A stretch of 63,965 bases of DNA, filler included, from Folioceros fuciformis (lineage: Eukaryota), in NCBI GenBank assembly GCA_049999805.1. It is 7 parts of 7 records of this genome, joined end to end, with 100 filler letters (N's around TTAATTAATTAA, not from the genome) between each part and the next. Parts side by side here need not be neighbours in the genome. Positions count along the whole stretch, not along the records: positions 20,078 to 30,481 come from JBNGIO010000896.1; 6 more parts are not named here. One strand, written 5' to 3'. Position 1 is the first letter of the stretch. The number at the start of each line of letters is the position of its first letter. The notes below the pieces were generated by a model that saw nothing but the letters and a program-made list of their open reading frames with translations, searched no databases and was not told where the DNA came from. A program made the position numbers and the translations under genes. This document shows, in pieces, positions 2,027 to 48,700 of the stretch.

Positions 2027-2059
<33 letters not shown>

Positions 2060-2083: not shown

Positions 2084-2143
2084 AACTTTTGTTTCTGTCA
2101 ACCCCCACAAGGAACAATATCCGGGATTGTCATGTGCCACCAC

Positions 2144-3307: not shown

Positions 3308-3430
3308 GCATAGTCCAACCTCAACCTTGGTGAGTGGCCAAATCTCTGCATAGTCCAACCTCAACCTTGGTGAGTGGCCAAATCTCTGCATAGTCCAACC
3401 TCAACCTTGGTGAGTGGCCAAATCTCTGCA
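3308..3430. repeat. 40-bp perfect tandem repeat, 3 copies
   Basis: gcatagtccaacctcaaccttggtgagtggccaaatctct three times, identical, with no spacers. Confidence 0.95.
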
Positions 3431-8117: not shown

Positions 8118-8215
8118 ACCTGCTGCTCTGCCAGGCAAATCCCACTTTGTCAGGTCCCAGCTGCTGAGGCTCGCCAAGCCTACCTTGAATATGAAAAAGT
8201 TCACAATACACCCCC

Positions 8216-8315
8216 NNNNNNNNNNNNNNNNNNNNNNNNNNNNNNNNNNNNNNNNNNNNTTAATTAATTAANNNNNNNNNNNNNNNNNNNNNNNNNNNNN
8301 NNNNNNNNNNNNNNN
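8216..8315. other. Artificial contig linker (N44-TTAATTAATTAA-N44)
   Basis: The same 100-bp spacer with stops in all frames also occurs at 19978-20077, 30482-30581, 43791-43890, 51990-52089 and 59978-60077. Confidence 0.98.
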
Positions 8316-8985
8316 TTCATGGTTGTGATCACCAATACCACCCTCTCTTCTCTCCTCTCCTGCACTTGCACGTAGATTGGAGTCGATCCTATTGACAGTT
8401 GTCTCACACACACTCAAATTTTAAAACATAGCTAGCAGTTCAGGGAATAGGGGGAGGGGGAACTTTAGGATGACACAACAGCGTTACGAGCAAGCTACAA
8501 ACCCACCTCGCACCAATCTTTCCGCTCTTCGTCCTTGGTCAGCGAAACTTGCTGATTCATCCCCCTCACCACCAACCGCGGAGCAACACTCTCGACCACC
8601 CCTAGGAGCTTCTTGCACACACTACCCACGTTGGCAATGCGAAGTCAACAAGGACCGGGAAGTTGTCTAAGACGTTGTTTGATTAGAGAGGCACCAACAT
8701 GCCTTTTTGTACAAAGTTTCTAGAGCTGGAGCCACAGCCCGCCATAAAGTTTGGTTTAAAAACAGTCAACGTGAAAGGTGCCCTTAATTGCAGGCGGCAT
8801 CAGGTCCAAGATAGCATCTTTACCAAATCTCATCTAAATTCTATTTTTAAGATGCAAGAACTCTTGGCCTACCTTAGCGCCGTGCCCTTCTCCTATCCGT
8901 TCTTCTAGCCCTCCTTCCTCTACAACAAATCCCTGGGCTCTCGTTCCTCGCTGCTGGTCAAGCATGTCTTCTCATAAAATCTCCT

Positions 8986-9126
8986 AATATGTCAGCAATT
9001 GCTTTAGTTGTTAACCCCGTGTTCCATGCACGCACGAAACACATAGAGATTCAATATCACTATATCCGTGATGCTGCAGAAAGGGGAATAGTAAAGGTAC
9101 AGTATGTACCGACAACACAGCAGATG
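8986..9126 (+). pseudogene. Ty1/Copia RNase H fragment
   Basis: Translates NMSAIALVVNPVFHARTKHIEIQYHYIRDAAERGIVKVQYVPT, the Copia RNase H signature. Confidence 0.85.
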
Positions 9127-9289
9127 TGTTGACTAGATCTCACTACTGACTGACCTCTCCTGGCTAGGCATAGGTGGGGTCCACCTTGGAGTCTTCTCTG
9201 CCTCCACTGATCGCCTGTTACTAAGGACCATCACAGGTTCCTTCTCCACGTAGGCCTATGCCTCTTCTTTTGTGAGCTCCTTTAGGACT

Positions 9290-14130: not shown

Positions 14131-14439
14131 GGACTGCCTCCGAATAACAAGGGGTTAATCCCCATACCCGGACACAATAGATGAAGCATCCATTTCGAGT
14201 CCTCACTTGCAGATGGTAGGCCCTGGTCCCTCCTATTCCCGCACGCACATGGATAGTAAGGTTAAGTACATGATCTCCATTTACATAGAGACCAGGAATA
14301 TAAGACTCCTCATCCATGTGCTTTAATACAATTTCGCCTCCTGCTGTAGATGAGGTGCTTACCACCTCCTCTCGTGGGCTACCCCTGACTGTCTGCTCTC
14401 TGTCCACCAAGGATGTTGGACCTTGCGGTTTGGCCCTAA

Positions 14440-17400
14440 AAAGAAAGGTCTGTCAAGTTCTAGGAATGTAATAGATCGAGCTAACACCACTCGTCATTCC
14501 TCAGGATGATATAATTTGTAAGCCTTAGACTGTTCACTGTACCCAATGAAGATGAGTGCTTGGGCTCTTGGATCCAGCTTCTTTCTCTTCTCCTCTGGGA
14601 TAAGAGCAAAAGCACGGGAACCGAAGACGCGCAAGTGCATCAAACTATGTTTCCATTTCCAGTAAGCCTCATATGGAGTCTTCAAAAGGACTGAACTGGT
14701 GAAGAGTCTGTTCAAAATGTAGATTGCAGCAACAATGGCCTCAGCCCGGTATTCTTGAGACAAGTTTGCCCACAATAGCATGCTCGTGGTCATGGCCAAT
14801 AAGGTCTGATTTTTCCTTTTTGCCACGCCATTCTGTTGTGGAGTATACGGAATTGTAAGCTGGCGTTGGATCCCCCTCTCTTGTAGGAAATTATCAAACG
14901 TCGTGTTTACAAACTCTGTTCCATTGTCAGTCCGAAGGTATTTAACAGACTGACCTGTCTGCCTTTCCGTAGTCAACAGCCAATCATGGAAGAGCTCAAA
15001 AGTATCACTTTTCAGGTGCATCAGGAATGTCCAAGTGTATCGAGAATAATCATCAGTGATGCAAAGGTAATAGATAAAACCGCTTAGAGACAATACATGT
15101 ATTTTGCCTGAGATATCTGCATGCACTAACTTGAGGACGACAAAAGCTCTGTAGGATGTTGAGACTGGAAAAGGATGGGCTTTCTGCTTGGGGACAATGC
15201 AACCTTCATAAGAAGGTAAATGTTTGAAAACCTAAGGCAATGGTTCGAGGTGACATTCTTGTAGTGACATGTCTACTAGCTTTCTCTGACCAAGCCGTGC
15301 ATGCCATAGGATAGCAAGACGTTGGGACTTTGTAGAGACAAGACTAGCCTAGTGTCCAAGGGTACAAATGTTCAATCTGTAAAGATCGTGGTCTAGTGTG
15401 CCCTTGAATGCTAGCATAGAAAGCTCTAGCCTCTTGTAGAAGGGACAATTATCCTTTTTGGCTAAGTTGCATCAATTTGCTGAGGGAGACCGGATTCTTA
15501 GCCATTGACGGCACAAAAAGGATGTCATCCAAGGTAAGAATTGATCCATCATGTAGAGTAAACTTGCACGTGCCACTGCCAAGGATCTGGAGACTGGATT
15601 GGTTTTGTTCGTCTCCCAATAGCACTCTTTCAGCTATTCTGTTCTTCTGAAGCAAGTAAAATTGTTCTTTACGTTTGCAGATGTTTGAAGTGGCACCAGA
15701 ATCGAAGTACCAACCATCCTCATCACATATGGAGCGAGGAAGACAGACTGTAAGTATCTTCACTATTGGCTTGGTGTCACCTGATGTCTTCTCCTTAATT
15801 GCAATAGTTGCAGAACCTTTAGGAGTCCAATTAGGTTCCCCTGCCTTTTTCTTCTTACATTCCCTGGCTTAATGTCTAGGTATACCACACCAATTGCAGC
15901 TTCCTGGACGCTTAGATGAACCAGCGGAATCTGAATTTTGGCTAGGTTTACCTCCAGCTTTGCCTTTTCCTTTGAATGGTTTTTGACCTGCCACTAATGC
16001 CTTCTATGTTTTACTCTTAGGAGTACCCGAAGAAAACATTCTGCTATGTTCTTCCTGATACAAGGCACCTATCACCTCTTCCAAGGTGATGTTTCCAGTG
16101 CCTCCAGCAGCTACAGCAGCATTGGCAGCTCTCAAAGGGTCATTCTGACTTGTGATAAAAGACAGATATGATGGAGGGAGACTTGCAAGAAGTTCAGCTA
16201 CAACATCGACCTCTTCCATCTTTGTTCCTGATAGAGAAGCCATCTATACTCTAAGGTGACGGAATTTACTTGTGAATGCTGCCACCTTATCCCCCTCTTT
16301 CATTTTCAAAGCATAGAACTCATGCTTTACACCAACAAGGGTTAGAACATTGGTAACTTTGTATGATTTCTCTAGCTGTGTCCAGATATCAGAGGCCTTA
16401 TCAAGGAACTCCACCTCAAGCACGAGGTCAGCATGTAGTCCTTCAATCAAGAGGGATATTGCAATACTATTCTGTTCGTCCCATTGAACAATCTGATCTA
16501 CAGACGGTGGTGGAGTTGCATTTGGATTTGGTTTTGGAATAGTTCCATCGATTATCTTCCACACATGTCGGGCTAACAAAGTTGACTTCATTCAGATATG
16601 CCATACGACATATTGTGTGCTGCTGGACCGATCTTTTTCTTTCAACTCTGCCGTGTACGTGGGTTTTGTGACAATTGTGGCCATGACAGCAGGCGGATTC
16701 TGGTTTTGAATCAGGGTAGTCATTAACTGTTTGAGACTAAGTGCTTGAACTAATTATAAGCTACTTAAAGCATCTATAGGCAAGCTAGACACTGCAGACA
16801 TATAAGACTAACAAGGTAAGCAGAGCTATGGCTCTAGCGACACAGGTCAGTCTAAAAATATGCCCTTTGATCCTACACTCTCTTAATTATGTGCATAGAT
16901 TAGTGTCTGACGTAATGTGTAAAAGAGGAATGCTGACTCAGGGATGCACGGACAGAATACACATTTGTAGCTATGTGAGTCTGTTTATGCTCATTGAGTG
17001 GTTCTCCTTCCAATACTCAAACAGGTTAGCAATTCAGAAAATTGAGCGCTGACAACCTCCTGGATTTGGAGATCTTGGTGGCGCATCCTTGATTTGGTGT
17101 GCTCTAATCGTGGCTGTCATCTCAACTATGCTCCAAAGGTGATTCTTGATTTTAATATCTCGTAGATGAATTGCCCTGAGAAAACGCTGATATTTCTCTT
17201 CAAATAGAAGCCTAAGATGCCTCTGTGTTTCGAGAAGCTGATCAACTTGTGCTTGGATTTGAGTAGGTGAGGAAGTAGAGGGGTCAGATCTAGGTACGTA
17301 GACTAGATCAGGGTTTTGTCCTCTTCTTTCACAACGTTCTCTATTCAGCCCATCCACCTCCTGATTTTTTCTTGATCTAGGACATGAATTGCCTTGTGCT

Positions 17401-19977: not shown

Positions 19978-20077
19978 NNNNNNNNNNNNNNNNNNNNNNN
20001 NNNNNNNNNNNNNNNNNNNNNTTAATTAATTAANNNNNNNNNNNNNNNNNNNNNNNNNNNNNNNNNNNNNNNNNNNN

Positions 20078-20605
20078 CCTTCCCAATGACAATTAACATG
20101 AAGTCCAATGTGGTGAAGTAAGTGGCCTTCCCAATGACAATCAAGATGAAGTCCAATATGGTGAAGTAAGTGGCCTTCCCGATTGCATCAAAAATCTCAT
20201 CAAGTGTGGGCATCGAATATCTCTCCATGGGCGTCACTTCATTTAGAACTCTATAATCCCCACACATGCACCTGTCCTTCCACTCCCCATTCTCATCCTT
20301 CTTCATGGGTAGCAATGTGGCAGTAGCATACTGAGATGTGGACTTCCTTATTAGGCCGGCTGCTGCCAATTCCTTGCACCTTTGATCCACAATCTCTCAC
20401 TCTGTGGGACTTAGTTGAAGTCTCCGCCTAAGCACAAGTTCATCCATGCTAGTTATGATCTTGAACTTGATCCAATCATACCTGCCCAGTTCTTCCCAAT
20501 TGAAGCAAATGCATGTCGATTATCCTCCAGCATCACACGGATCTTCTGTTGGTCTTCTTCCTTCACCTCCTGACATACTTGTCAGACATGTCCTACCAAA
20601 ACGCC
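20078..20605 (-). mobile_element. Ty3/Gypsy pre-RT linker and reverse transcriptase N-terminal fragment
   Basis: EELGRY...LSPTE.EIVDQRCKELAAAGLIRKSTSQYA...KKDENGEWKDRCMCGDYR.LN...YSMPTLDEIFDAIGKATYFTILD. Confidence 0.9.
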
Positions 20606-21378
20606 ATAAAGTTGCAAGGGGGGGGAATGTTGTGCCCTCCTTGTAAGGGGGCAGACCTTTTTGACGAAAATGACACCCTTCACAAAAGGGTAAAAATTGG
20701 TGGTAAGTACTTTGTGCCAACCTTGCGCTATACCTTGTCCTAGCCACAAACCCGCTTTTTTAAACATACAAGGTGTAGGCCCCCGGTTTGCGTTTGCTAT
20801 CCATGCTATGTCTAGAACACCACAATGACAGGGGCACCGGCCTGCCGGCATCCCTCCACTCACGTGGACCATACGTCACATGCATGCTTGGCACACGGGC
20901 TGCATGAAAGTGTTCTATTTACGTTCTGAAAGGTGGGTAGTCAAACATTTGGAACAGAATTATCACAACAATTAACAATAAAGTCTTTCACCCTAATCCT
21001 ACCCTAGTCCACAAGAGGGTCTGGTGCAACCTCAAAGTCAAATACCACAACCACACTCTGCAACCACGCTTCGTTGGTGACAAAAAAGTTGTCCACTTTT
21101 TCCAAAGCTTTGTCCTCCACTCGTGAATCTTCAAGGTCATCGTGGTCCGATGTGGGTGCTTCCCATACCCTATCCATCGTTTGTTGTCTTGGGTCCAACA
21201 CATCGTTTGTTTTCCTACTCCTCCGCTTTGACGTCAAGGAAACCACTTGCGCCTGGGAGGAGTCCTTCTAGCTAATACAAACCTCCTTTGCCCAGAATTG
21301 GGATGGCCCTCGTTGATGAGGTTCGAACGTCAACTCTTCATCTGCATCTTGAAGCACCTCATCATACCCTTGGATTCA

Positions 21379-21545
21379 CTAGGGGATGTACGTTGCGCAT
21401 TGCTTATCTCCTTCAATGGCTAGGCAGTTCCGCCGAGACAGCAATGTAGTCCCGTTGCCTGAACAAGCATCAACGATCCACTCTCCCTCTCTACTGAAGC
21501 TACAAACCAACCTATCCATCAACCCTTGTAGGCAAGCGGGTGTGG
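21379..21545 (-). pseudogene. N4/N6 (amino) DNA methyltransferase C-terminal fragment (motif X-I-II region)
   Basis: LMDRLVCSFSREGEWIVDACSGNGTTL..RNCLAIEGD matches the N6_N4_Mtase pattern L..LI...S..G..VLDxFxGSGTT...gR..i.iE.d. It resembles the copy at 27716-27900. Confidence 0.7.
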
Positions 21546-22519
21546 TATCCCTACCAGGCACCTGCTTACATGTATCGTGGCCACATCAATCCCACGGTCG
21601 TTGTAGGCTTCCTTGGAATCGCTCCCCTATGAGCCTGGTCAGCTACGTCTATTGTTCCCCTACAATAGTCAACCCTCCCAACCACGTACCTGCCAAACTG
21701 GCAACACGTCCAGTCAGTAGGTAGGCACCATTCCTTCACTTGGAAGGGCCCCAGTACCTCCCCCTGCACTCATAACCTTTTCCTCACAAGACTCCCTACG
21801 ACACCTTTCTCAACCCCACAATCTAGCTGCTCGTCTCCCTACGCCCAACGAGCAACAAGTTTTCCTCTGAGCCTGCTCAGCTCCCTCCAACTGTGTTTAT
21901 CGTTCACCTATGACATTCAACCTTCCCTAGCGCATACCTTCAACACCTCCAGTCAGTAGGAAGGCACCATTCCTTCACTTAGAAAGGCCCTAGTACCTCT
22001 TCCTACTGATTTCTAACTACCTACACCGAATACCCCTTTTCCTCACAAGTCTCCTTACAACACCTTCCACAACGATCCAACTGCTCGTCTCCCCACGTTC
22101 AACGACCAACAAGTTTTTCCTTGGGCCGGTTGCTACGTGCTTGTGCATGTTAGCGAGAACTTCAAGGGAGTCTTTCTCTAGAGTCTACCCTCAAGCCAAC
22201 AGTCACACATGTATTGCCACCCACCTACAGCAGCACAACAACCATTCACAAGGGAAGCAACTTGCAGGGGTGCCCATGGAAGAATATGAGCCCTCCGCCA
22301 AGCACTTCGACCACTGCAGAAGGGAGGCAGATTCTGAAGGTTCAGCTACTGGGCCCCCCTCCATTATTGGGATTTGTCTACTTTGGATCCACGAACTTCC
22401 ACCGTACCTTCCTCTGTGTGGATCTCTTGGGATATCCCGTGACTACCACGTACAGGTTTGGTAGGGAAGGATCCACTTGTTCTTCAACTTGAGGTTCCTT
22501 CCCTACGTAGGGTGAGGAT

Positions 22520-22655
22520 GTCCCCTTCGTAGGTAGGGTCCTTGTTGCTCCCTTCGTAGGTGGGTTCCCTACCCCTCTTCTCATAGGTAGGTTCCTTACA
22601 CCTCCTCTTGTAGGTAGGTTCCTTACCCCTCCTCTCGTAGGTAGGTTCCCTACCG
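22520..22655 (-). repeat. 27-bp tandem repeat encoding (K/R)EPTYxxRG-like units, ~5 copies
   Basis: REPTYERRG KEPTYKRRC KEPTYEKRG REPTYEGSN KDPTYEG in ORF 22484-22666. Confidence 0.8.
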
Positions 22656-23175
22656 TTCCCACCCATTGTTGTAGGTAGACTGCCTACCCCATTGCCATAG
22701 GTAGGGTGTCTACCATATAAGTACCTTCCCTACCTATGTAGGTATCTTCTATTTTCCCCACATAGGTACTCTCTCTACGTATGTAGGTAGACATCCTACT
22801 ACGTAGGTATCTTCTTATTCTAACCAACCAAAATAGAACTAAAAAAATCCATAAAAACCTTCACCAGTTGCTCACTACCTACCATGGACACTTGCCCATA
22901 AACCTACCTTCCACATGTCTCCCTTCGAAATGTTCTAAACAAAAAGAAACCAAGTTAGACTTTCCTAGACTGATTACCAAACTTTTCCGTTCCACAACCC
23001 TAGTGGTCACTGAGATGGGCAAACCACCCTTTTGTAATCGAAGAGGTACACATATTTCTTCACCATCATATCATGCGCAATGATAGATTTGCCATTGTTG
23101 AAGATTCATTGTTGTTGCCTTGGCATCATTGACGTTCAAACTTTGTTAATTCCCTCCTTCACACCCCATCCAACA

Positions 23176-23937
23176 GTGGAAAGCTCACAAGGGTGGGCAA
23201 GGTCTTGCGAGGTTGACCGGGTGTATCAGTGGGATGCGAGGGTGGTCGCTCAATAGCAAGCACGGGTCTGGGCTCATAGTTTGCGTCCAATACACCTTGT
23301 AGCTGCAAGGTGGGATTCCGCTTCATGTTGCGAAGAGCAAGCTCCAAGACTGAACCAAGGATGAGGTTGGTCTAGTAGTTGCGTAGCCTATGCGCATAGC
23401 TGCCCACTTGGACAGCATCGATAAGAAAGGGAACACCAATATGGTGCTGCACAACGGCCATGTCCTCACAGACATAGTCCCTTTTGTCAAGCTGCACTAG
23501 GGTGTTCTCGAGAAGGTAGTCACCCTGTGGGTTCTCCTGCTGCACCCATGCCAAGATTTGGTGCAAGTCTAGGAACAGCCCAATGTGCTGGTCCTCCAAC
23601 CCGGCATTGCTTGTGAGAACCCTTGGCAATCCCAACCAGCAATCAGCATGTCGATGGGTCCCAAAGCCTGGATATGGCCTTGTTGGATGTACCTGACATC
23701 TAGAGGCAATGCTGCAAATGTGGCAGACAATGCTGACTCTGGCAATTGTGTGGGAAATCTGCTGCGGAGCTCCTGTAAACGATGAGTAGCCATCTATTGT
23801 GCTTCCCCACTACTGTCATAGTATATATAATGCAGAATGGGGAGGCCCGCTTTGAGCAAGGCCTCCATGCCAGTGCAAATACCTCTGAACAGTTCGACCA
23901 GAAAGAGGCCTGCACTTGGGATGGGCCAGGCAATCAC
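23176..23937 (-). pseudogene. C5-cytosine DNA methyltransferase domain inside a Gypsy pol polyprotein (degenerate)
   Basis: Motif I LVELFRGICTG, motif IV DMLIAGWDCQGFS, motif VI YLLENT and motif VIII GSYAHRLRNY*TNL occur in canonical order, followed by a PTLVSF segment. In frame with the upstream protease-linker ORF across one TAG. Confidence 0.88.
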
Positions 23938-24787
23938 CTAAGCACTAACAATATGCTCCTGTGTGGGATCCTTGAGCCCCCGCTGCAACATAGCTTGCAC
24001 CTGTTGAACATGCTCATGAGGATCCTGCAGCATGCTCTCAACTAGTGTACGGTGATTGGCAGCCTTGATAAGATCTGCCAACTTGCAGGTGATTGTGGTG
24101 TTGCTAAAATAGCTGTCATAGTGTTGCTCCTCCTGCTCAGACTCCTGGTGATCGTCATCATGCATATGGTTGCTGGCCAGCATAATTGCTCTGTTGTCCG
24201 GGCCTGCTACACATGCTTGCCGTTCCACAAGTGTCGCGGTGTCAGCCTCTGCCATGCCATACAGCCATAAGGGTAAGTGTGCTACCCTCCTTCCACCTTG
24301 CTTCCAATCTAGCCGGTAGTACGCTTGCTCTGTCCAATTGTCCACACTCAAGCCTGGTGGAAACAAAAATTCTTGACCCAACAGCACGTCAAAATTTGTG
24401 GCTGTTGTCACCAAGCATGGAAGGCTCAGTGTCATGGCATTTGGAGTGCCAGGCTTGAGTGTGATGTCCATAGGGTGGACAGTCTCTCCCGAGACTGGTT
24501 CGATGGCTCCTATGTCATCCTTATGTTCCAAGGAGAGCTCTTGAGCGCTGATCCACTGAGCTTGAGCCTTGCTGCTAAGGCTTTGCTAATTATCACTCGT
24601 TGGGCACTAGTGTCCAGCAATACCACTCTCGGAGCATACCCATTCACCGTGATGTGCCCAGCATCATTGTCAACAAGTGCATTGCCGACTCTAACTGCCA
24701 AGCGGTTAGTGGGCTGAATCCTTGGAGAGCTCATGGGTCAAGCAGGTTGTCCTCCAGCTGCTGCAGCATCAAGCATGTATGCTAGTA
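23938..24787 (-). mobile_element. Ty3/Gypsy gag C-terminus, aspartic protease and linker
   Basis: VVLLDTSAQRVII (DTG-like active site) and NFDVLLGQEFL (C-terminal retropepsin motif). One frameshift near 24520. Confidence 0.8.
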
Positions 24788-25924
24788 CACTCCAGTAGGT
24801 ATGCCTACAACCGTCCGTGGCAGTTAGGCCCCGCATTATGCATGATGGTAGAGTACTTCTACATGGACGGATTGTCCTGACTATCACTTCGGTGGCCAAG
24901 CCGGCGGGACAGAATCCAGCATGCCAAACACTTTGAAAATTTGACTCCATTGTAAATACTAATTTTTTCCAATCCACTCCGTCTCATCGAACTCCGGAAA
25001 ATATCTCCGGTGGACCATCATAGTAAGGCTCTAATAGGTATTTTTGGGGCTGACAGCAACCTACACGCCAAGTTTGAGCCAAGCACGCCAATGTTGATGA
25101 CGTTTAGGTAGCGCATGGGGTTAAAAAGTGGAAGAGAGTGCACCCCAAAGGAGAGAACAAGAGCTCTGGGAAAAGGAGGACTGCACAAGAGGCCCCACGA
25201 CGATAGGAAATCGATATGGGGAAGTCCAAACCAAAAGGAATATCAAAAGACATCGAAGCTGGGCACAAGACAACTTCGTCGACAAGGGAAGCAAGCTTTA
25301 GGCATGTTTCTAGAAGCCAGGGCTGGAACGAGACCAAGGGACAGGAAAATCTAGGTGGGGCAGCCTTGGAGATGGACCCAATGATGATCATCATGGAGGA
25401 GCTAAGTGTTCTACCAGGGATGGACTTGGAAAGCCCATTTACAAGGAAAGAGGAAAAAGCATTGTACGACATATATGTTGCCTTGCCTAAATAGGATCTC
25501 TTAGACAAGGAGTGGTGTGTCCACAAAGAGGGGCTGATTGCACCTTGCCCAACTTTGATCCCATCCCCGGTTCTTTGGGTGAATGGCTACCTTGATGCTT
25601 CCAAGACCTAGAAAATCGTTGTGAGCTACATCCTTTGGGTGTGGAAGTACAAGGTTCAAGCCCAAGTAAGAGTGAAAATGCTAATATGTCTTGTGAAGAA
25701 GAAATTCTTTCAACACAAGTCTAATGTACATTACCTCCTCACGTTGTCCACCAACAAGCTAATAACTCGCCGATGCAACAATGCGGACTTGTGAAACGGC
25801 CTAGGAAATGCGTTCACAATGGACAAGGTGAGCTTTTGGTTGAAGTTTTGCGTTGGATGCTTTCTAATCAAGTAGCACTTGGTGTCCCCAACGTCGCACC
25901 AACGACAATGCAAGGGTGCTGGTG

Positions 25925-26135
25925 TGCCCCTGGGCGCGCCAGGGAGGATGTAGAGCACTAGTGCACTCATGGGTGCGCCAGTGAGGATGTAGAGCTTCTG
26001 GTGTACTAGTGAGGATGTAGATCCACTACCTCGCCCTTGGGCCCGCTAGGGAGGAGTTAGAGCCACGGGCATGCCCTGGGTGCTCTAGAGAGGAAGGATA
26101 GCCTTTGGTGCGCCCTTGGGCATGCCATGCAGGAG
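25925..26135. repeat. Degenerate GC-rich ~38-bp tandem array
   Basis: Recurring ...gggYgcgccagNgaggatgtagagc... units. Confidence 0.6.
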
Positions 26136-26320
26136 GGATGGCCGTTTGTGCGACCGTGGTTGCCTTAGGCCATTTACTGCGGTCATGTTCAGGCTTGGGC
26201 TATTGGCTAAGAATGTAAGCCCAAACCATCCATCATCTTCTAACCTTTTTCCATGTTGTCGTGCAGACATTTGAGGCAGTACTTACCTTCATCAAGAAAG
26301 AGATCGTCATTGGATTGATC

Positions 26321-28626
26321 ATGACAAAGATGGCACACGAGGCCGAGGAAGCAAGATAGAACGTAGGAGATCACCTCAACATTCAGCGCAATCAGTTTGC
26401 GACAAGTTCTCGTGAACCGTCATTTGCAGCCGGCGAAGATGAAGTCAACCTTCGAGCATCCATGACATTGATACAAAAAAGGATATTTGTGAGGTGAAGT
26501 TGAAGAAGTATACAACGATGCTAATAGTGGGGACTAGATGAGGAGGAACCCAAAGAGAAAGATCCCAAAGACCAACCGAGCGAAGAAGACGAAGACGAAA
26601 ATGTGTTTCAAGAGATGGCTAGTGAAGGCGCATCAAAGCGGTCCTTGAACATCTCTGAAAAAGCCAGTGCAAAGACATTATTGCATAGCCTTAATGCCTT
26701 AGGGAGAAAATCATAGGCGATCCTACATGACACATTGGGTGAAGAAGAGAAGTTTGACTCGGCGTCTAAAAGCGATGATGATCTTGAACAAATTGTCGCA
26801 AACTCCCCGGTCATTCGTAAAGGGACAACGAATGTGAAGGCCAGCAAGAAGAAAAAACAAGGCAATATGAAAGAGGCTTCGACATGAAGAGTTAAAACGA
26901 AGGTTATCTTGACTGATAGCGATAGAGTTGGCAGGGCCTTGCAGCATAATGATCCTATCAATCTCGTGAGGGAGTCTGTGCATCGCAAATGATGTATTCC
27001 GCATACAGACATGGTCGCCATAAATATTTTGTGCTCAACAGATTATCTAACCAAAGATGCCCAAATAAGGCGAGTTGACAAGTCATGGGGAAAGCATGTG
27101 CTACGCGAGATAAATAAGGGGCTAGTACAGAAAGGCATTATGCCCTTGATGTGCATGATCAACCCTAAGGAGTGCCCGAGGAAACTAATAATACAGGCCA
27201 TATCCTTGTCCCATCGTTCTGTGTAGTTTCCTCTTGGCATATCCAATATGAGCAAATATTGGATATGGCCTGTATTATGATTGGCCCAATTTGCTCATAT
27301 TGGATATGCTAAGAGGAAACTACGTAGAACCATGGGACAAGGAATTTATAGCCGATGACCTGGAGGAGGTAATGGAAGGATTTTTCAAAGTCATCGAGTG
27401 CCAAACATTCAAAGTTGTATGCATGCACGGACAAGATCAGATGTAGGATGTGACAAATGTCTTGCGGAAGTGGTGTGTGAAGGGAGGTGTACAAACTATG
27501 GTACGGAAAAAAGACCTCGTCGCAAATGAGGGGCTATACAAAAACTATGAGTACATGACAATAGGATTTGGGGTTCATCCATTGAATGAAGATATTCAAA
27601 AGAGCAATGCATTGAGCAATAGTGCGGCAAAGGAGATTGGAGCAATGCTTGGGATTATCAAGCACAACGTTGTCATAAAAAACTGATCAATGTGTCGAAT
27701 GATGGCTGAGTTGTAAATCCATATTAGAAGCCACTCGAGTTGATGGTTCTTTTACGTGGGCTCTTGAGCGATGAAGGAGAATGAGTAATAGATGGATGCT
27801 ATGGGAGCAAAAGTGGTGTGCTTTTGCATTAATGGAAGGGTGGAATTGTATTGCCATTGACCAAGACCAATGACATACCATCTTCATCGAGCAAAGAATC
27901 ACGAGCCATGAAGTGTTTCGATCGTATGAGGAAGAATTGACAACGAAGCCTCGTACACGAGGGCATTCACTTTCTTTTGCTCGAGAGCTTTCTGTGGAAG
28001 GTCATTGAAACCAAGGGCGCACGTAATGCAAATGGTTGAAGGGAAGACTGCACCAATGGACCTCCAAGAACTCAATCAAACGTAAGAACATGCAAAAAAG
28101 AAGACGAAAGGAAGGGGAAGGGAATTTGATCATGCACCTGTAGAGGATTTGGGAAAGGGAGCGCCGCGACACTCCGATGACGAGACCTGGGACCTTGAGC
28201 AACTAGAAACTTTCATGTCCAACCCATCATCCATGTTTACGAAAGAAGACCACCAAGACCGTAGTTTGTTATCGGGCCACAAGCTAATGAGAGACACATA
28301 ATTGTCCCCATGACAGAGCACCAAGACTCTCCACTGCATGAAGGGTAGTTAGTGGCCGATGATAGCAATGTAGATGTGAAAGAGCTTTGGCGTGCACAAG
28401 TGTGCGCCATGAATGGCTATGATAATTGTAATACATGCTTATGTTTGATGGTAATGCCATCAGCTTGGCATGTCAAAAATCTTTGCTTCAAAGAATGTCT
28501 ACTTTGAAACCCATAGTGTACTATGTGTCTAGCGTGCCCAACCTAGAAATGACAAAACTTAGCGATCAAGGAGGGTGGGAAGAGGGGAAACCGTGTGCAC
28601 AAAACAGACCCGAATTATTTCAGTAG
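26321..28626 (+). pseudogene. Beta-class N4/N6 DNA methyltransferase gene with acidic N-terminus and putative ParB-like domain (degenerate)
   Basis: Manual translation: QIRRVDKSWGKHVLREI...PLMCMINP (~27011-27185); LLILDMLRGNYVEPWD (27291-27338, motif IV position); VVNPY*KPLELM (27710-27745, motif X); SDEGE*VIDGCYGSKSG (motif I); ALMEGWNCIAIDQD...FIEQRI (to 27900). Stops and frameshifts present. Confidence 0.8.
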
Positions 28627-28648
28627 GCCTAGTTGGCCTACTATGAAA

Positions 28649-29650
28649 TCACTCGTGTGCATTCATGTCCTTGGTTGTTACTAGCAAGTAGAACAACCAC
28701 TTGATACGCTCCTTGCTGGGAAAATGCCACATAACCTTATGAGGCACATTTTCCCTCACAAGCCTTGGCTTCCCATACTTAGCGCATGTTGTGTTCACCT
28801 TGTATGGGCCTCTATATAATATGCAGTAATTTTGGCAAGCAAATATTTATGAACCTTCATTCCCAAACTACCAGAACCTTTTTTGCGGCTTCGATGCTTG
28901 TGGGCAAACAATTGGGAGTGGGCAAAAATTCATTGAAAGCACCCCGCAGCATGTCAGTAACAACCACATTGGACATGCCATGCCTTGTTCAAAGGCCGAG
29001 TATCAGCAACATCCATGTCAACATATTTTCTTTTAAGTGCACTCATTGTCTACAACCCATAATAGAATTCTTCGCCTTAGCACGACACCAAGCATCTACC
29101 ACCTGGCCACACATGTGGTTTACATTGTCTATAAATTCTTGTGCTATGTTCCAATGGGGAAGGACATCCCTTGAATCACTAGCTTCCGTGTTCACCTCGG
29201 ATGTGCCATCGATATCACTAACATTCGAGTTTGACATATGGTTTGGATTTTCGTTTGACAAGCTGTCCATTTCATTTTCAGCACGTATGATGGCTTCCGT
29301 ACCCTCGTTTTCCAACGACAGGCTATCGTCATTTGGGTGGGTGTCATTCACCACCATATTCACATCTCTGCCAGCCTGTTACAATTAAAACCCACCGTCA
29401 TACTATGCTTTTGTTTTCATGCAAACATGTACTACGGACAAACCCATCTAATGAACCTAAAGCCATCTAAGCAAAGCATCCTCCATGTTTTGGTGAATGT
29501 AGTAACGGCAAGAGAGTGTGGTAGGATTAGCGTGGGATGGATGCAACTTCGCACATTTGCGGTATGGACACCGCATGTACAACCCCGTTCTTTGCGCTCA
29601 TGGCATGGTGGCGGGCCCATGTTCAGCAAATCCCCCACAAACCGCGTCGT
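28649..29650 (-). mobile_element. CACTA (En/Spm) TnpD-like transposase N-terminal relic
   Basis: MRCPYRKC...LDGF..W (transposase-associated domain), then RHGMSN...LPTPNCLPTSIEAAKKVL and ACQNYCILYRGPY....C....R....VPHKVMWHFP..RIKWLF, the conserved TnpD N-terminal blocks. Confidence 0.82.
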
Positions 29651-30581
29651 TCTTCAGCAAGCATACTTAGGCTTGGCCTTGCTACCTGAAATTGTGCACA
29701 TGATCAGAAGGCGAGGAATAAGCCTTAACAAATCTAGACAAGTGCGGAAGCAATGACCACATCCGAAGTCACACCCAAATTCACCCGCACTGTAGATCAT
29801 GCACAACCGGCACACCTCGTTCAGCTTGCTCAATCATGGTCGAGTTTGCGGGAAAGTGAATTCCCCATAGACAAAAACTTGTGATCTAGTCTACCAAAGC
29901 AAATCCAATGATTTGGTCTACAAGCTCTCTAGTTTCTGAAGCTTCCTGCTCACCGCCGTCGTTGTAGAGCGCGTGAACTTTGTGCTGAAGGTTGGTGGAC
30001 GTGGGCGCAATTAGCCAAATCCCCTTTTCATTGCAACTCCTCCACATGACAACTCTCATACAACAGCTAGCAACCACCACACTCTCAGCCTCAACTCCCA
30101 ACTCACTATAGAAGGTCGTGTGTATCGGAACTCCCCTCGAAATAATCAAACAACAGGGACTTGGTAGTTTTTTTTGTTTTGATCAATAGAGTGATTGAAT
30201 ACGCTATGGGCAACCTCTTTTATACCCAAAAGTCTCCTTGGCCCATGGCAGTTTCACTCTTCAGCGTGGTTTTGGCTACTAATAATAGGTCCTCGGGTCT
30301 TGACAATGGGAGAGGGCCGGACTCAAAGTCCCTTGGACATTGGCATTAGTGTTCCTTAAATATTGTTTTTTGCAATAACTCATCCTTGGCTCATGGCCTA
30401 CGAGGACGGGCTGGGCCAGGAGTTCCTTGGCTCTTGGTGGTTTGGAATAACCAGGAGCCTACATAAGAAGGAGGGGGGTATNNNNNNNNNNNNNNNNNNN
30501 NNNNNNNNNNNNNNNNNNNNNNNNNTTAATTAATTAANNNNNNNNNNNNNNNNNNNNNNNNNNNNNNNNNNNNNNNNNNNN

Positions 30582-43790: not shown

Positions 43791-43890
43791 NNNNNNNNNN
43801 NNNNNNNNNNNNNNNNNNNNNNNNNNNNNNNNNNTTAATTAATTAANNNNNNNNNNNNNNNNNNNNNNNNNNNNNNNNNNNNNNNNNNNN

Positions 43891-45783
43891 ATCCTGTAAT
43901 TAATCAATGTTATGTGTTTTATAGACACGCTTCCGCGCTGTTTTCTAGCAACTACAACTCACAGAGTCTAATTTGCTAAGTAGGTGTGTTGAGAGTGCAC
44001 ATGATTGCAAGGACGAGATTGGTGGATTGCAGCTGGGAGGAGGGGGCTCCGATTGTGACAACATGGTGATCGCTGTTTGTGGGCCATGCTGGAACGGAGT
44101 TGCGGTGCCGAGGGCGTGGCGGTTCCTTTGCGAACCCTCACTTGATGTTTGCTAGCTGCGGGCTTGCACGACACGAGATGCTGAGCAAATCACGAAGCCA
44201 AGCCTGGAGCTTGTGCATGGAATCGATGTGGTGCGAGCTATGGACTAGGGTCATCGTAGAGACTCGCCGAGCTGGGGCTACGATGGTATGGTGCGAGCAA
44301 CGATGTGGTGTAAGTGCAAGCTGGGTCTAACGCTAAGTGTCCGAGCTAGGCAAGCGGCCGTGACCCTCCACTGAGGAGTTGCAGACTCAGGGCTCTTGTG
44401 GCAGCGCCAACAGATAGCGAGCTTCAGGTCGTAATTGTTGGAGATAGGAGCGGATTTGTCAGTCTGCTAGTGTTTTGAGTTGGCTGATCTAGTCGGGCTG
44501 CGTCCGTGGGTGTTGGGGAGACTGGGATTGTGCTACGATAGTTCATTGCGTGCGATTTTGCCCAAACACTGGTTTTGAATGAACGAGACACATTGGCGCT
44601 CCTTGCAATGCGATAGTGTTGCTCATGTGTGTGGATTTACTTCTGATAACTACTCTTTGAACCTTGCTACCATCAGCTTGGTGTGCTGCAGGATTTGTTG
44701 TGTGCACAAAGACCTATTTGTCCCGATTCATGGGTGTCATGGTGTGGACTTAACGTGCTACAATTTTGTGAGCTAAGGGAGTGACAAGATACTAACCTGA
44801 CTGAGTGTCTGGTGGAGGGTGGTGCATCTATCTCTGAGCTTTATGTTGGTATTCGAGCAAGGAGTTAGGGTCAAGTCAGCAAGCACAGATTTTGTGCACT
44901 CTCATACCCCCACTTTTCCTGACCTCCTGTTCATTACCGACTGTGTTGTTTCTGCATGGGCTATATATCCCATCTAACAGGAGCAATGAGGAGCCAGCCT
45001 ACCATTTGAGAAGCTGGACTGTACCATAGTAGCCTTGGGCCCCGCAACGGAGAGCACGACATCGACGGGCTGTAAGGCTTGATTCACCTGAGCTGGGATT
45101 GGTTGGGGAGCCGAGTGTCTGTCATCCTTCATCGCCTGGCCAGAGTACCACGAGCTAGAGTGGTGTTGGGGCAATGTGTAGTCCTATCGTAGCAGTAGGA
45201 ATGAGTTGGTCACCCCTGTCGACCATTGTCCAGGTCGTGAGTGGAGCTACTTGTTTTGAGGAGGAGGAGTCTGAGAAGTCTTATCCCATGGAAGGATCTG
45301 GAGCAACTGTTCACAAGTCCGAGAAGTTTTCTGGTAGACCAAGGACGCAGACTCTTGGAGATTTTAAACTGTTTTATGGCTTCTTAACAAGTCGCGTCAG
45401 GTTTAAGCATGGAGCCACCTACACCCATAGGTATATGTTTGAACCGTTGCCTAGGTATCTAAATACGAGGCCTTGGATCTGTTTGAGATTCATGCACCAA
45501 AAATGTTGGCAGTGGTAGAGAAGCCTAATGCTGCCTACACACCGGCTTTGCAAGTGGCATACAATAGTTTGCTGGCCACTGCAGTGACTGCTCATCAAGC
45601 AGGGATTGCAGCCGGCACAATTGCAGAGTCAGTTTCACCACCTACAATGGTGAACATGACTCCACAGGAGATGGCTACTGCCACAACTGGCATTCCGGAT
45701 ACGTTGGATGTGCCCAAGCATGACAACCCTGTAGAAGATTTCTTTGCAATTTTGGATAAGGCATTTTCAACCAAGACCCCTGA
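43891..45783 (+). mobile_element. Probable Gypsy 5' region and gag N-terminus, interrupted by a Copia insertion
   Basis: Frameshifted ORF from 45288 (MEGSGATVHKSEKFSGRP...NPVEDFFAILDKAF) is cut off exactly at the TG of the Copia LTR at 45784. The upstream kilobase looks LTR-like but its boundaries are unproven. Confidence 0.55.
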
Positions 45784-48700
45784 TGTTAAGGTTAATTAGT
45801 GATTAACCAGGTTTTTTTAACTTGCTTAGGTTAAAATTATATTCAAGGGTTATACCCTTTGGGGGTTGCCCATATATATGGACAAATTTTTGTTATTTAC
45901 AAAACACTAGAGATATACACATATATAGTATTGTTATACACAAAAAGTCTCAGTCTCCTGGCTCTCGCATGTTTTATGCTAAATGACTATCCTCTAATAG
46001 TTTACATGGTATCAGAGCCTAATCCCTCAAGGCCATTCAATGCAGCATCTACCACTCCGCACTTGGTCCGCTAAGATTAGCAAACATGTTGCTGCACAGA
46101 ATTTCGAGTAGCATGCTTTTGCAATCTATGAGAAAGCAGCCAAGTTGCTAAGAAAAGTGAATAAATTAAGTTCTCATTTCTTGTCTGGGAAATGAAACAC
46201 CAATAGGCACAATGCCTCAAAATTCTACAAACAAGAGTGGTAGCCCCCGAGCTAACCACCTGTTTGGACATAGACAAGATGTGAGAAGAAGAAATTCTAC
46301 ACATGTTGGATATTCAAAAATTGATTGGTAAAGAGGGATTCAGACCTCACATTGCTGTGAAAGGAGAAGAATTACACCTCCAACTTGCCCACACCAAATT
46401 CGTGAAGCGGCATACCCAACTGCACCATAAACAAGACGATCATCAGAATTGATTCTAACCAATGTGGTTTACAGACAATTGGCTGTGCTAAGGCAGGTGG
46501 AGAAAGTTCAATCTTTATTGCTACAGAGTCAAGAAGAGATTCAGAGCAATGTTGAAGATATAAGAAATTCCCTTGAGCATACAACAATTGTGGAATCAGA
46601 ACAAATAAAGGAAGATATGAAGAGCATTGTTGGTCTTCTACAAAACATGAATCTGAGAGGATCTGCCACCAATTGTGACAGATCGATTCGATGACCATTT
46701 CCTTGCTTCCGCTATTGGAGAGCCAAAGGCGCCCACACTCGGCGTTGTTGAGGGCCACAGATCTGAAGAGTCATAATCAGAGAGGTGTCCCTTGGCATTT
46801 TTGTGTCTCTCAAGATGCTACTGGTCCACCTAAAGAGACACCAAGAAGTGATAGTTAGGGTTCAGCTAAAAGAACATTTTTTTAATTAATTAATTAAGTC
46901 ATGTTTTTATGCATACCTTATGAAACGTTATTAGTCTAAATTAAGAACTAACATACGGGAAATGAAAGGGAGGATGAGTACGAAGAGGCACCTCGAATTC
47001 ATCCTTCCCCACTGATCCTAGCCTATTGTACTAGTGTTAGAACAAAAATAATAAAAAGGGAGATCTAGTGGGCTTAAGCTACTAACCTGTGTCACTAGGG
47101 CCATAGCCTCATTTACCTTGTTAAGATCTTATGTCCGCAGGTGCTGGTGCATCCATAAACGCCTTGTTTTGGTTAGTTCTAGAGCCTAAGTTCTAATACA
47201 GCCTATTGTCAACACTAATTAGCCTGTAATAATGACCACTACTACCACTAAGGCAACATACACGTTAGAACTGAAGGAGAAAGATCGCTTCAATGGGACA
47301 AGGTACCCAGTTTGGCGAATCCGAATGAAAGCTACCTTGATAGCCCGACACGTATGGAAAATTGTGGATGGGACCTTACGTAAACCAGATCCCTACAGGC
47401 ACGCTGTGGGCAGTCTCATATTTGTTGCTAATTGGACAAGGCTAGATATCCAATACGTTGTCAGCACCGTCTCATAATTCTTGGAGCGACCTGGAAATGC
47501 ACATTGGGTTGCTGTCAAGCACGTTTTCAGGTATCTGAAAGGGACAAAAATGACAGGCCTATTCTACAAGAGCAGTGGGAAGAAGAAACTTAACCTAGAA
47601 GGCTTTACGGATGTAGACTGGGCATCCGACAGCGATTCCAGGAAGAGTCTCTCAACCTATTGTTTCCTCCTCTCATCTACCATTGTCAACTGGTCTTGTA
47701 AGAAGCAATCGTCCATAGCACTCTCTTCCACGGAGGCAGAGTACAAGTCTCTCACAGACGCCTCCAAGGAAGCTGAGTGGGAGCGTAGTTTCCTCAAGGA
47801 CCTTGACCAGGAACAAATGGCACCTACAAAGCTGCATTGTGACAATATGTCAGCCCTGGCATTGGTGGCTAATCCTAGATTTCATGCACGTACTAAGCAC
47901 ATTGAAATTCAGCACCACTATGTCAGAGATGTAGTCAAGAGAGGTGTGGTCAAAGTAGACTATGTGCATACAGATGAAACCGTAGCAGACATCCTCACAA
48001 AGAGCTTGCCAAAACATAAGCACTATAAGCACCTTGAGGGACTTGGGTTATTAGATTACTTTGCCTACTTCAAGGATGGGTCTTAGGACTTATCTGGTAG
48101 GAGGGGGTGGGAACCCTGACGTTCCCTGGGTGTGGCGTGGTGTGCAAGCAATCCAATTGCCTGCATAAATAACTGCACGTAGCAGGCTTGTCAGAGGGAG
48201 AGTCCACAACACATGTTAGGTCAGTCACACATTTGACAGCACAATAGCAAGGACAGACGGGATGGATGAAGCTCACCTTAGGATGAAATTATCCCGTGTT
48301 GCCCTGATTCTCACAAGACAAGTTTCACATCCTGCGGCTCATATGAAGGCAGTGGGACTCCACCAGCAGCTAGCAGTAGTTCCAACTCCGCAATCCTGTT
48401 CATGGCCGCCCTGAGCTTGGCCGCAAGGATGGGAGCAGCGTACTCAAAATAGCGAAAGTCTGGCAGTTGCTGTTGGGGCCCCTCCTCCTGCGGAACTCTG
48501 GCAGTCCCTGGGTATGGTCTTGAGTTCACTGGCATACTGTTCACTCTCCTGACCAGTTCCTCTAGTGAGTTGCAGCTGACCCAAGGCTGCACGGGCTTCG
48601 CTTCTGCTGTTCTGGGCTCCTGCACAGGCGCACGTTCCCTTCTCTTTAGCGCTGCTTCATACAAAACTGCAGTATCGAAGGCCGCCATGATAGAGGGTTC

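What the first reader, a model, noticed from the sequence alone, without database searches (positions are those of the whole stretch)
23176..24787. Gypsy retrotransposon with a C5-cytosine methyltransferase fused between protease and RT in a land plant
Seen: the protease-linker ORF continues in frame through one TAG into LVELFRGICTG, IAGWDCQGFS, YLLENT and AHRLRNY*TNL. A Gypsy RT lies downstream on the same strand (20078-20605). The catalytic PC dipeptide is replaced by DC. Known: DNMT-carrying retrotransposons have been reported in dinoflagellates and the charophyte Klebsormidium, whereas standard angiosperm Gypsy pol lacks such a domain. Inference: this lineage persisted into a bryophyte-grade genome and may methylate its own cDNA or new insertions.
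Basis: partly seen in the sequence, partly recalled or inferred. Interest (0 to 1): 0.85.

Follow-up and report, generated by a model that had tools for sequence, protein, structure and literature searches.

The report
Dead Gypsy retrotransposon carrying a DNMT3 domain
This is a broken, truncated copy of a plant jumping gene that once carried its own DNA cytosine methyltransferase, a kind already described in a streptophyte alga and, as public protein records show, also present in liverwort and peat moss.

Summary
On the minus strand of one contig (20078-30481) lie an aspartic protease, a DNMT3-like C5-cytosine methyltransferase stretch (motifs I to VIII) and the start of a Gypsy-type reverse transcriptase. 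They are collinear with natural polyproteins ordered gag-PR-DNMT-RT-RH-IN-PHD.

Pfam does not see PF00145 in the window's own translation. The two window fragments match a profile of the family at E 2e-32 and 3e-30. That profile matches DNMT3A at E 5e-24. A modelled relative folds like DNMT3A/B/C.

The copy is dead. It has four in-frame stops and two frameshifts, no gag and no motifs IX-X. A 2.67-kb unrelated block holding a very high-copy repeat separates DNMT from RT.

"DC instead of PC" is true but is not a lesion. In this family the residue before the catalytic Cys is E in 103, P in 66, S in 6, D in 3 and C in 1 of 179 sequences.

Named relatives are Klebsormidium, Closterium, nine Marchantia polymorpha proteins and one Sphagnum protein. 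This is therefore a new member of the known streptophyte Gypsy-DNMT3 kind. The host looks like a land plant, but the relic's own contig carries no host gene.

The parts
24519..24731 (-). Aspartic protease, N-terminal part, with the active-site triad read as D-T-S
   Evidence: tblastn maps P0156 residues 471-541 to 24731-24519 at 45% identity. Weak Pfam PF13975/PF13650 hits, below gathering.
23941..24510 (-). Protease C-terminal part and the PR-DNMT linker (215-aa open stretch). It is reached from the previous part only through a frameshift near 24511-24519.
   Evidence: tblastn maps P0156 residues 545-833 to 24510-23599 at 36% identity. ORF list.
23599..23937 (-). DNMT3-like domain, motifs I-IV (LFRGICTG ... 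GWDCQGFS). Entered through the TAG at 23938-23940 and broken by the TAG at 23794-23796.
   Evidence: hhalign against family alignment A1: 99.9%, E 2.4e-32. phmmer against PDB: 29 of 30 listed hits are DNMT3A/3B/3C, best E 0.0027.
23177..23602 (-). DNMT3-like domain, motifs V-VIII and part of the target-recognition region (ENT, AHRLRNY*TN ... PTLVSFP). It lies in another frame because of a frameshift near 23599-23605. TAG at 23372-23374.
   Evidence: hhalign against A1: 99.8%, E 2.9e-30. tblastn maps P0156 residues 835-976 at 48% identity. phmmer against PDB: 0 hits.
20508..23176 (.). 2.67-kb block with no likeness to the family, standing where relatives have about 214 residues (motifs IX-X and linker). 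It holds a very high-copy repeat (21394-23085), 27-nt tandem repeats (22530-22660) and a roughly 250-nt duplication (21626-22117).
   Evidence: tblastn gap. Repeats. Summed contig depth is 500-4650 here against 78-245 over PR-DNMT in run X1. No Pfam hit in 3 frames.
20148..20513 (-). Reverse transcriptase N-terminal part, with a TGA at 20397-20399. Cut by the contig end at 20078.
   Evidence: tblastn with P0156 (47.5%), P0119/P0162 (38%) and P0002 (32%).
20078..20180 (.). 48-nt tandem duplication (2.1 copies) inside the RT at the very end of the contig
   Evidence: Tandem Repeats Finder and the repeat finder. Sequence view.
45321..45784 (+). Separate relic in another contig: gag N-terminal piece of the same family
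   Evidence: tblastn maps P0001 residues 11-160, 37-39% identity, E 1.8e-22.

Best explanation
The interval is a decayed, 5'-truncated and internally disrupted copy of a Ty3/Gypsy-type retrotransposon of the streptophyte 'Gypsy-DNMT3' kind.

In intact relatives one polyprotein reads gag(CCHC)-protease-DNMT3-like methyltransferase-RT-RNase H-integrase(-PHD). In relatives the element is bounded by split direct repeats (A1 ... B1-A2-B2).

Shown: the homology, the domain order and the decay of this copy.

Inferred: in active family members the DNMT3 domain is made as part of Pol. Its most likely substrate is the element's own newly made cDNA or its new insertion. This window copy does nothing. It has lost gag, motifs IX-X and its reading frame, and an unrelated high-copy repeat block sits between DNMT and RT.
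For: Homology and order:
- The window is collinear with natural protein P0156. PR maps to 24731-24519, PR-linker-DNMT to 24510-23599, DNMT to 23602-23177 and RT to 20507-20148, at 36-48% identity.
- The family search gave 552 cluster representatives at E<=1e-3 and 202 at E<=1e-10.
- PF00145 was at or above its gathering score in 16 of 27 long relatives scanned and in 12 of 15 scanned.
- The full order CCHC-PR-DNMT-RT-RH-IN is seen in P0119, P0162 and P0314. In L004 one frame (6936-12419), broken by 3 stops, carries DNMT-RT-RH-IN-PHD.

DNMT3 class:
- The family profile matches DNMT3A at E 5.4e-24 and DNMT3B at about 4e-20. DRM (3e-11) and M.HhaI (3e-10) are far weaker.
- The AlphaFold model of relative P0128 has pLDDT 88.8. 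Its best PDB folds are all DNMT3A/B/C, E 1e-18, TM 0.69/0.78.
- The window fragments match the family profile at E 2.4e-32 and 2.9e-30.

Placement:
- In the DNMT tree of 140 rows the window joins the P0156 group (SH-aLRT 99).
- It lies inside a 46-row set (SH-aLRT 97) that holds every PR-DNMT-RT type row, all 9 Marchantia rows, 4 Closterium rows and the Klebsormidium and Sphagnum rows. None of the 68 RT-RH-DNMT-IN rows is in that set.

Decay:
- Four stops, two frameshifts and the missing part.
- CpG observed/expected is 0.36 in PR-DNMT and 0.27 in RT, against 0.58 for the window.

Constraint in relatives: DNMT pieces of the metagenome loci give a median dN/dS of 0.47 over 55 pairs. The three loci with an unbroken domain give 0.25-0.35.
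Against: - PF00145 gives no hit on any frame of the window itself at E<=1.
- phmmer of the second fragment against PDB finds nothing.
- No LTR or split repeat, gag, RNase H or integrase of this copy is in the window. 'Gypsy' rests on relatives and on a 120-residue RT piece.
- The contig holding the relic has no recognisable host gene. Its assignment to the land plant rests on the other contigs of the record and on the run labels.
- Methylation of cDNA is not shown for any Gypsy-DNMT3. The K. nitens domain was inactive in yeast, a result called inconclusive (PMC5890265, section 10 read).
- dN/dS is at least 1 in 4 of the 55 pairs. The three-pair estimate is tiny, and choosing open pieces favours low values.
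Confidence: 0.9

Rival explanations
1. A pseudogene of the host's own DNMT3 gene that happens to lie between unrelated retrotransposon fragments.
For: Non-flowering plants keep a host DNMT3 (PMC6453930, passages read). The family profile's best solved relatives are DNMT3A/B.
Against: PR, DNMT and RT are collinear with single natural polyproteins at similar identity. Host plant DNMT3 carries DUF3444, and nothing of that kind was found here by Pfam. The domain clusters with domains of retrotransposon polyproteins. No host DNMT3 was in that tree, so this last point is weaker.
Confidence: 0.03
2. A working or domesticated methyltransferase gene, or an active element, at this locus.
For: The catalytic Cys, the E-N of motif VI and the R-x-R of motif VIII are still readable. 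Other copies exist in the same organism's reads.
Against: Three stops and a frameshift lie inside the domain. Motifs IX-X are absent, there is no gag, and the RT is separated by 2.67 kb of unrelated repeat. No RNA holder was listed, but that is not evidence either way.
Confidence: 0.02
3. The contig is not from the land plant but from an associated streptophyte alga, as contamination. The 'land plant' setting would then be wrong.
For: The window is a chain of separate contigs. The relic's contig has no Pfam-recognisable host gene. Named algal relatives exist.
Against: Two DNA runs labelled with the same organism hold 0.73-0.75 of the stretch's words, together with many diverged paralogous contigs. 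GC content resembles that of the neighbouring contigs. Marchantia and Sphagnum show that land plants do carry the family.
Confidence: 0.07
4. Chance resemblance of short motifs to C5-MTase motifs.
For: No PF00145 hit on the window's own translation.
Against: E 2.4e-32 and 2.9e-30 against the family profile. 48% identity over 142 residues to P0156.
Confidence: 0.01

Closest known systems
KnitGypsy-Dnmt3 of Klebsormidium nitens (de Mendoza et al. 2018, PMC5890265; passages and sections 10 and 11 read)
   Same: A DNMT3-like domain sits inside the pol polyprotein of a Gypsy-type element. A K. nitens polyprotein (GAQ93235.1 = P0089: CCHC, PR, PF00145 at 58.4 bits) is a hit of the window query (E 2.5e-13) and lies in the same 46-row clade. 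Relatives of the window copy show the DIRS-like split-repeat layout that the paper's figure legend describes.
   Different: The window copy belongs to another sub-lineage (the P0156 group). Its motif IV reads D-C-Q where K. nitens reads P-C-Q. It apparently sits in a land plant, and it is a dead fragment.
Unnamed Marchantia polymorpha and Sphagnum fallax polyproteins in public records (for example Mp_4g09160 = P0301, Mp_8g17980 = P0304, MARPO_0091s0058 = P0308; BDL97_09G086500 = P0353)
   Same: Land-plant members with PR-DNMT(-RT-RH) order. The P0156 domain is 37-43% identical to the Marchantia proteins and 28% to the Sphagnum protein.
   Different: They form their own clade (SH-aLRT 100) apart from the window's group. 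The 8 Marchantia rows in which the pattern was found read P-C-Q; it was not found in P0309. I found no paper that describes them as DNMT-bearing retrotransposons.
Chlorophyte Gypsy elements with RT-RH-DNMT-IN-PHD order (Haematococcus lacustris P0062 and P0332; Monoraphidium neglectum P0125)
   Same: Homologous DNMT3-like domain with the same GW(E/P)CQ, ENT/ENV and AHRLRN-WTN signatures.
   Different: The domain sits between RNase H and integrase, not between protease and RT. These rows lie on the other side of the tree.
Mammalian DNMT3A/3B/3C catalytic domain and host plant DNMT3
   Same: Best solved relatives by profile (E 5.4e-24) and by fold (E 1e-18, TM 0.69/0.78). The motif order is not rearranged.
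   Different: No PWWP/ADD or DUF3444 companion domains. The domain is embedded in a retrotransposon polyprotein. The Pro of the P-C dipeptide is replaced in 113 of 179 family sequences.
SymbioDIRS-Dnmt3 / SymbioLINE-Dnmt (dinoflagellates) and EpiLTRs (DAM + DNMT4-like + chromodomain; preprint 10.64898/2026.05.21.726589, section 8 read)
   Same: Retrotransposons that carry a cytosine methyltransferase.
   Different: Different element classes or a different DNMT clade. They are treated in those papers as independent captures.

Membership tests
C5 cytosine DNA methyltransferase (PF00145), DNMT3 class | Profile match to PF00145 at or above the gathering score | tested here: not met
   0 of 3 frames of 23159-24787 hit PF00145 at E<=1. 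Relatives do hit: P0001 28.5 bits, P0119 46.1, P0089 58.4, against a cut-off of 22. The window is linked to them at E about 1e-30.
C5 cytosine DNA methyltransferase (PF00145), DNMT3 class | Motif I (F-x-G-x-G, AdoMet binding) | tested here: met
   LFRGICTG aligns with the family's LFGGxxxG. The nearly invariant Gly is kept.
C5 cytosine DNA methyltransferase (PF00145), DNMT3 class | Motif IV P-C-Q with the catalytic Cys | tested here: inconclusive
   Cys and Gln are present and are invariant in A1. Pro is replaced by Asp. Across the family the position is E 103, P 66, S 6, D 3, C 1 of 179. Whether E/D-C-Q enzymes are active is untested.
C5 cytosine DNA methyltransferase (PF00145), DNMT3 class | Motif VI E-N-V and motif VIII R-x-R | tested here: met
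   ENT is present, with E and N invariant in A1. AHRLRNY is present but is followed by an in-frame stop.
C5 cytosine DNA methyltransferase (PF00145), DNMT3 class | Motifs IX and X (C-terminal part of the fold) | tested here: not met
   Homology ends at 23177. P0156 residues 977-1190 have no counterpart. Relatives carry ERERAMGF ... LLG-x-MD.
C5 cytosine DNA methyltransferase (PF00145), DNMT3 class | DNMT3-type fold and closest solved relatives | tested here: met
   Met for the family, not for the window copy itself. The A1 profile matches DNMT3A at E 5.4e-24. The P0128 model has pLDDT 88.8 and its top folds are DNMT3A/B/C. Window fragment A alone: 29 of 30 PDB hits are DNMT3, best E 0.0027.
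Ty3/Gypsy LTR retrotransposon | Pol order PR-RT-RH-IN | tested here: inconclusive
   The window holds only PR and the first 120 or so RT residues in that order. Relatives have the full order.
Ty3/Gypsy LTR retrotransposon | Terminal repeats and gag | tested here: not met
   No long direct repeat flanks the relic and no gag lies upstream of 24731. Relatives L004, L015 and L054 have A1 ... B1-A2-B2 split repeats, not plain LTRs.
Streptophyte Gypsy-DNMT3 (KnitGypsy-Dnmt3 kind) | DNMT3-like domain in the pol frame between PR and RT, homologous to the K. nitens element's domain | tested here: met
   Collinearity. P0089 of K. nitens is among the hits. Shared clade with SH-aLRT 97.
Streptophyte Gypsy-DNMT3 (KnitGypsy-Dnmt3 kind) | [quoted passage not shown] | tested here: inconclusive
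   Relatives only. Median dN/dS is 0.47 over 55 pairs from 17 open pieces, and 0.25-0.35 for 3 pairs of unbroken domains. The window copy is a pseudogene.

The most novel reading that the evidence does not exclude
Land plants, this one included, still hold transposition-competent Gypsy-DNMT3 elements. On this reading their DNMT3 domain, mostly with E or D instead of P before the catalytic Cys, is an active de novo methyltransferase that marks the element's own cDNA or insertion. A retrotransposon-borne DNMT3 lineage would then have run alongside the host DNMT3 through land-plant evolution.

The evidence leaves this open. Several paralogous copies exist in the same organism, and some of this copy's breaks are private to it. 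Long open polyproteins exist in unnamed records (P0119 and P0162). The domain shows constraint in relatives.
Probability: 0.2. Interest if true: 0.65.

Novelty: new member of a known kind. Interest (0 to 1): 0.4.

Why it matters
Retrotransposons that carry the host's own silencing enzyme are rare. In print they are tied to dinoflagellates and one streptophyte alga.

This relic, together with the named Marchantia and Sphagnum proteins, shows that the PR-DNMT-RT Gypsy lineage reaches into land plants in more than one sub-lineage.

The catalytic-loop proline, long treated as near-universal in C5-methyltransferases, is replaced by Glu, Asp or Ser in most family members. That gives a concrete test: are E-C-Q domains active, and on what substrate?

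The locus itself has no function.

Tried and rejected
- Own-genome search: no genome is held.
- Pfam on the window's frames found no PF00145.
- phmmer of fragment B against PDB found 0 hits.
- Expression: no RNA holder was listed. The run guessed to be RNA (X4) laid only 3 partial contigs. This says nothing about expression.
- Looking for motifs IX-X in the 2.67-kb block: tblastn with relaxed settings and 3-frame Pfam found nothing.
- A second methyltransferase (DAM-like) as part of the element: only a 28-residue PF01555 match, E 0.016 and below the gathering score, with an Atlas score of 0.91. It is absent from relatives and from the metagenome loci, and it lies in the high-copy block. It is kept as a lead only.
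- Host gene on the relic's contig: six-frame Pfam of 24788-30481 found nothing.
- DNA likeness of the window copy to the 80 metagenome loci: only about 118 nt (24301-24418) at 70-74% identity. Those loci come from a different host lineage and cannot date this copy.
- Intact copies among the 80 loci: none. The longest plus-strand ORF is 847 aa.

Full report
**Setting.** The 63,965-base window is not one stretch of chromosome. Six pairs of 44-N runs, each pair around TTAATTAATTAA, divide it into contigs. The finding lies on the minus strand of contig 20078-30481. Other contigs carry three PPR ORFs, two of them with E motifs, an intron-split ABC transporter and Copia elements. The 843-aa PPR ORF finds only land-plant names among the named hits of the 120 listed: Cryptomeria, Diphasiastrum, Adiantum, Selaginella, Ceratopteris and Ginkgo-style ids, at 33-48% identity. 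The record therefore looks like a land plant with no close sequenced relative. 'Bryophyte-grade' is not shown. The relic's own contig has no Pfam-recognisable host gene in six frames. No whole genome is held.

**Observation.** All quoted strings are present. The frame is more broken than described:
- TAG at 23938-23940, before motif I.
- TAG at 23794-23796, before motif IV.
- A frameshift near 23599-23605, before motif VI.
- TAG at 23372-23374, inside motif VIII.
- A frameshift near 24511-24519, in the protease.
- TGA at 20397-20399, in the RT piece.

Pfam on the three minus frames gives only weak protease hits below gathering and no PF00145.

**What it is.** A word-based search with the second fragment found three long proteins. 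One was P0001 (1,214 aa, gag-PR-DNMT, 48% identical, PF00145 at 28.5 bits against a cut-off of 22). An exhaustive phmmer search with the PR-linker-motif I-IV read-through gave 552 cluster representatives at E<=1e-3 and 202 at E<=1e-10. Most matched the motif I-IV part.

Of 27 long hits scanned, 16 carry PF00145 at or above gathering, and two architectures appear:
- (a) CCHC-PR-DNMT-RT-RH-IN, for example P0119 of 2,188 aa.
- (b) RT-RH-DNMT-IN-PHD.

P0156, a member of P0001's 90% cluster, has a complete domain followed by the RT start. The window aligns to it piece by piece:
- Residues 471-541 (45% identity).
- Residues 545-833 (36%).
- Residues 835-976 (48%).
- Then, 2.67 kb further on, residues 1191-1310 (47.5%).
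- Residues 977-1190 (motifs IX-X and linker) and residues 1-470 (gag) have no counterpart.

**DNMT3 class.** A 26-sequence alignment of the domain (A1) has an invariant G, C, Q, S, A and G around motif IV and an invariant E-N in motif VI. Its profile hits DNMT3A at E 5.4e-24, DNMT3B at about 4e-20 and DNMT3C, far ahead of tobacco DRM (3e-11) and M.HhaI (3e-10). The window's two fragments match A1 at 99.9% (E 2.4e-32) and 99.8% (E 2.9e-30). Alone against PDB, fragment A finds DNMT3A at E 0.0027, and 29 of its 30 listed hits are DNMT3 proteins. Fragment B finds nothing. The AlphaFold model of relative P0128 (pLDDT 88.8, pTM 0.89) has DNMT3A/B/C as its best folds (E 1e-18; TM 0.69 by query and 0.78 by target). 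The Atlas places the P0156 domain next to PF00145 clusters, the first of them eukaryotic and mostly Streptophyta.

**DC instead of PC.** Among the 216 collected sequences with a hit to the domain HMM, 179 matched the motif IV pattern. The residue before the Cys is E in 103, P in 66, S in 6, D in 3 (the window included) and C in 1. The Cys is invariant. The window's Asp is therefore a conservative variant of the family's commonest state, not a lesion. Whether E/D-C-Q enzymes work is untested.

**Who carries it.** Named members are:
- Klebsormidium nitens GAQ93235.1 (P0089).
- Closterium spp. (P0010, P0022, P0334, P0348, P0350).
- Nine Marchantia polymorpha proteins and one Sphagnum fallax protein.
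- The chlorophytes Haematococcus lacustris and Monoraphidium neglectum.

By order of domains, all named streptophyte rows with a second domain are type (a). The chlorophyte rows with a second domain are type (b); P0349 shows the methyltransferase alone. Marchantia P0308 reads DNMT, then RVT_1, then RNase H.

A maximum-likelihood tree of 140 domain rows was built from the rows with at least 75% HMM cover, so 76 of the 216 were left out. The window sits with the P0156 group (SH-aLRT 99), inside a 46-row set (97). That set holds the type (a) rows and all named streptophytes and none of the 68 type (b) rows. Marchantia plus Sphagnum form a separate clade (100). The tree has no host DNMT3 and is rooted at the midpoint only.

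**Anatomy of close relatives.** A scan of metagenome contigs with P0156 gave 301 encoding stretches among 344 pattern matches, and 80 loci were kept. None is intact. The longest plus-strand ORF is 847 aa. L004 has one frame (6936-12419) broken by three stops that carries DNMT-RT-RNase H and then integrase-PHD. L004, L015 and L054 each show one repeat at the left (A1) and the arrangement B1-A2-B2 at the right. This is the DIRS-like layout that the 2018 paper's figure legend notes for the K. nitens elements. These loci resemble the window's DNA only over about 118 nt at 70-74% identity, so they belong to another host lineage.

DNMT pieces that are open in these loci give:
- dN/dS of 0.25-0.35 for the 3 pairs of unbroken domains (3 of 80 loci).
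- A median of 0.47 over 55 pairs from 17 pieces, with 4 pairs at or above 1.

This is a mixed signal of past constraint and later neutral decay.

**The copy in its genome.** Two DNA runs of the coded organism hold 0.73-0.75 of the stretch's words. Contigs were laid at 80% likeness or more. In run X1, individual exact contigs have depth 6-12, while the summed depth is 78-245 over PR-DNMT and 14-37 over RT. It is 500-4,650 over 21394-23085 in X1 and up to 7,545 in X2. The tool warns that this is no copy number. Even so, diverged contigs (for example 399 nt with 43 differences) show that several paralogous copies exist. They also show that the middle block is a separate, very abundant repeat. The first in-frame stop and the frameshift near 24511 are not shared by the 4-5 and 2-3 paralogous contigs that cover them (tables 3 and 4). 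CpG observed/expected is 0.36 in PR-DNMT and 0.27 in RT, against 0.58 for the window. That fits deamination of a methylated repeat, which is an inference.

**Mechanism.** Shown: homology, domain order and decay. Inferred for active members: the DNMT3 domain is translated within Pol and acts on the element's cDNA or new insertion. The 2018 authors favoured this idea for DIRS-type elements and left it open for Gypsy. Their K. nitens domain produced no methylation in yeast, which they call inconclusive (PMC5890265, sections 10 and 11 read). This copy has no activity.

**Known or new.** The kind is in print: KnitGypsy-Dnmt3 (2018). A 2026 preprint lists 'streptophytes (Gypsy-DNMT3)' among described cases (section 8 read). 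A 2025 paper repeats 'streptophytes and dinoflagellates' (passages read). Six full-text searches and passages of five further papers gave no report of such elements in land plants. The 2018 paper does not mention Marchantia (0 occurrences). Supplements were not read and might list more taxa. The Marchantia and Sphagnum proteins are public but carry only automatic names.

**Verdict.** This is a new member of a known kind. The locus itself is a relic. The wider pattern has moderate interest: land-plant lineages, Glu as the commonest residue before the catalytic Cys, and a second insertion site in chlorophytes.

Noticed in passing
window 21382-21585 (-): A 68-aa open stretch between the DNMT and RT pieces, on the same strand, resembles the C-terminal AdoMet-binding part of N6/N4 DNA methylases. 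PF01555 gives E 0.016 at 15.6 bits, below the cut-off of 26.7, with 28 residues matched. The Atlas's top clusters are PF01555 at 0.91. It lies in the very high-copy block and is absent from relatives. It may be chance or a remnant of another element.
   Followed up: partly
window 21394-23085: A very abundant repeat in the organism's reads: summed contig depth is 500-4,650 in X1 and up to 7,545 in X2, against 6-12 for single exact contigs. It has 27-nt tandem units (22530-22660) and a roughly 250-nt internal duplication. Its kind is not identified.
   Followed up: partly
window 8216-8315, 19978-20077, 30482-30581, 43791-43890, 51990-52089, 59978-60077: Paired 44-N runs around TTAATTAATTAA. The record is a chain of contigs joined by six-frame stop linkers, so neighbouring contigs need not be neighbours in the genome.
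   Followed up: yes
window 45321-45784 (+): A second relic of the same family in another contig: the gag N-terminus only (P0001 residues 11-160, 37-39% identity).
   Followed up: partly
run X3 laid on window 20078-25700: Differences in this run are dominated by C>T (156) and G>A (225), unlike X1 and X2 of the same sample. It looks like a bisulfite or enzymatic-conversion library, which could give the methylation state of these copies.
   Followed up: no
proteins P0002, P0032, P0033, P0062, P0332 and others (not in the window): A large group of Gypsy polyproteins with the DNMT3-like domain between RNase H and integrase, ending in a PHD finger. Named members are from the chlorophytes Haematococcus and Monoraphidium. 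The papers I read do not list chlorophyte DNMT3-Gypsy elements of this order.
   Followed up: partly
window 9290-9546 and 13870-14126; 9894-16591 (-): Two Copia-type elements or fragments lie in tandem on the minus strand (gag, Pol_BBD, rve, SH3, RVT_2), with a 257-nt direct repeat pair at 95% identity.
   Followed up: no
window 20078-20180: A 48-nt tandem duplication inside the RT piece, exactly at the contig end. It may be an assembly artefact.
   Followed up: no
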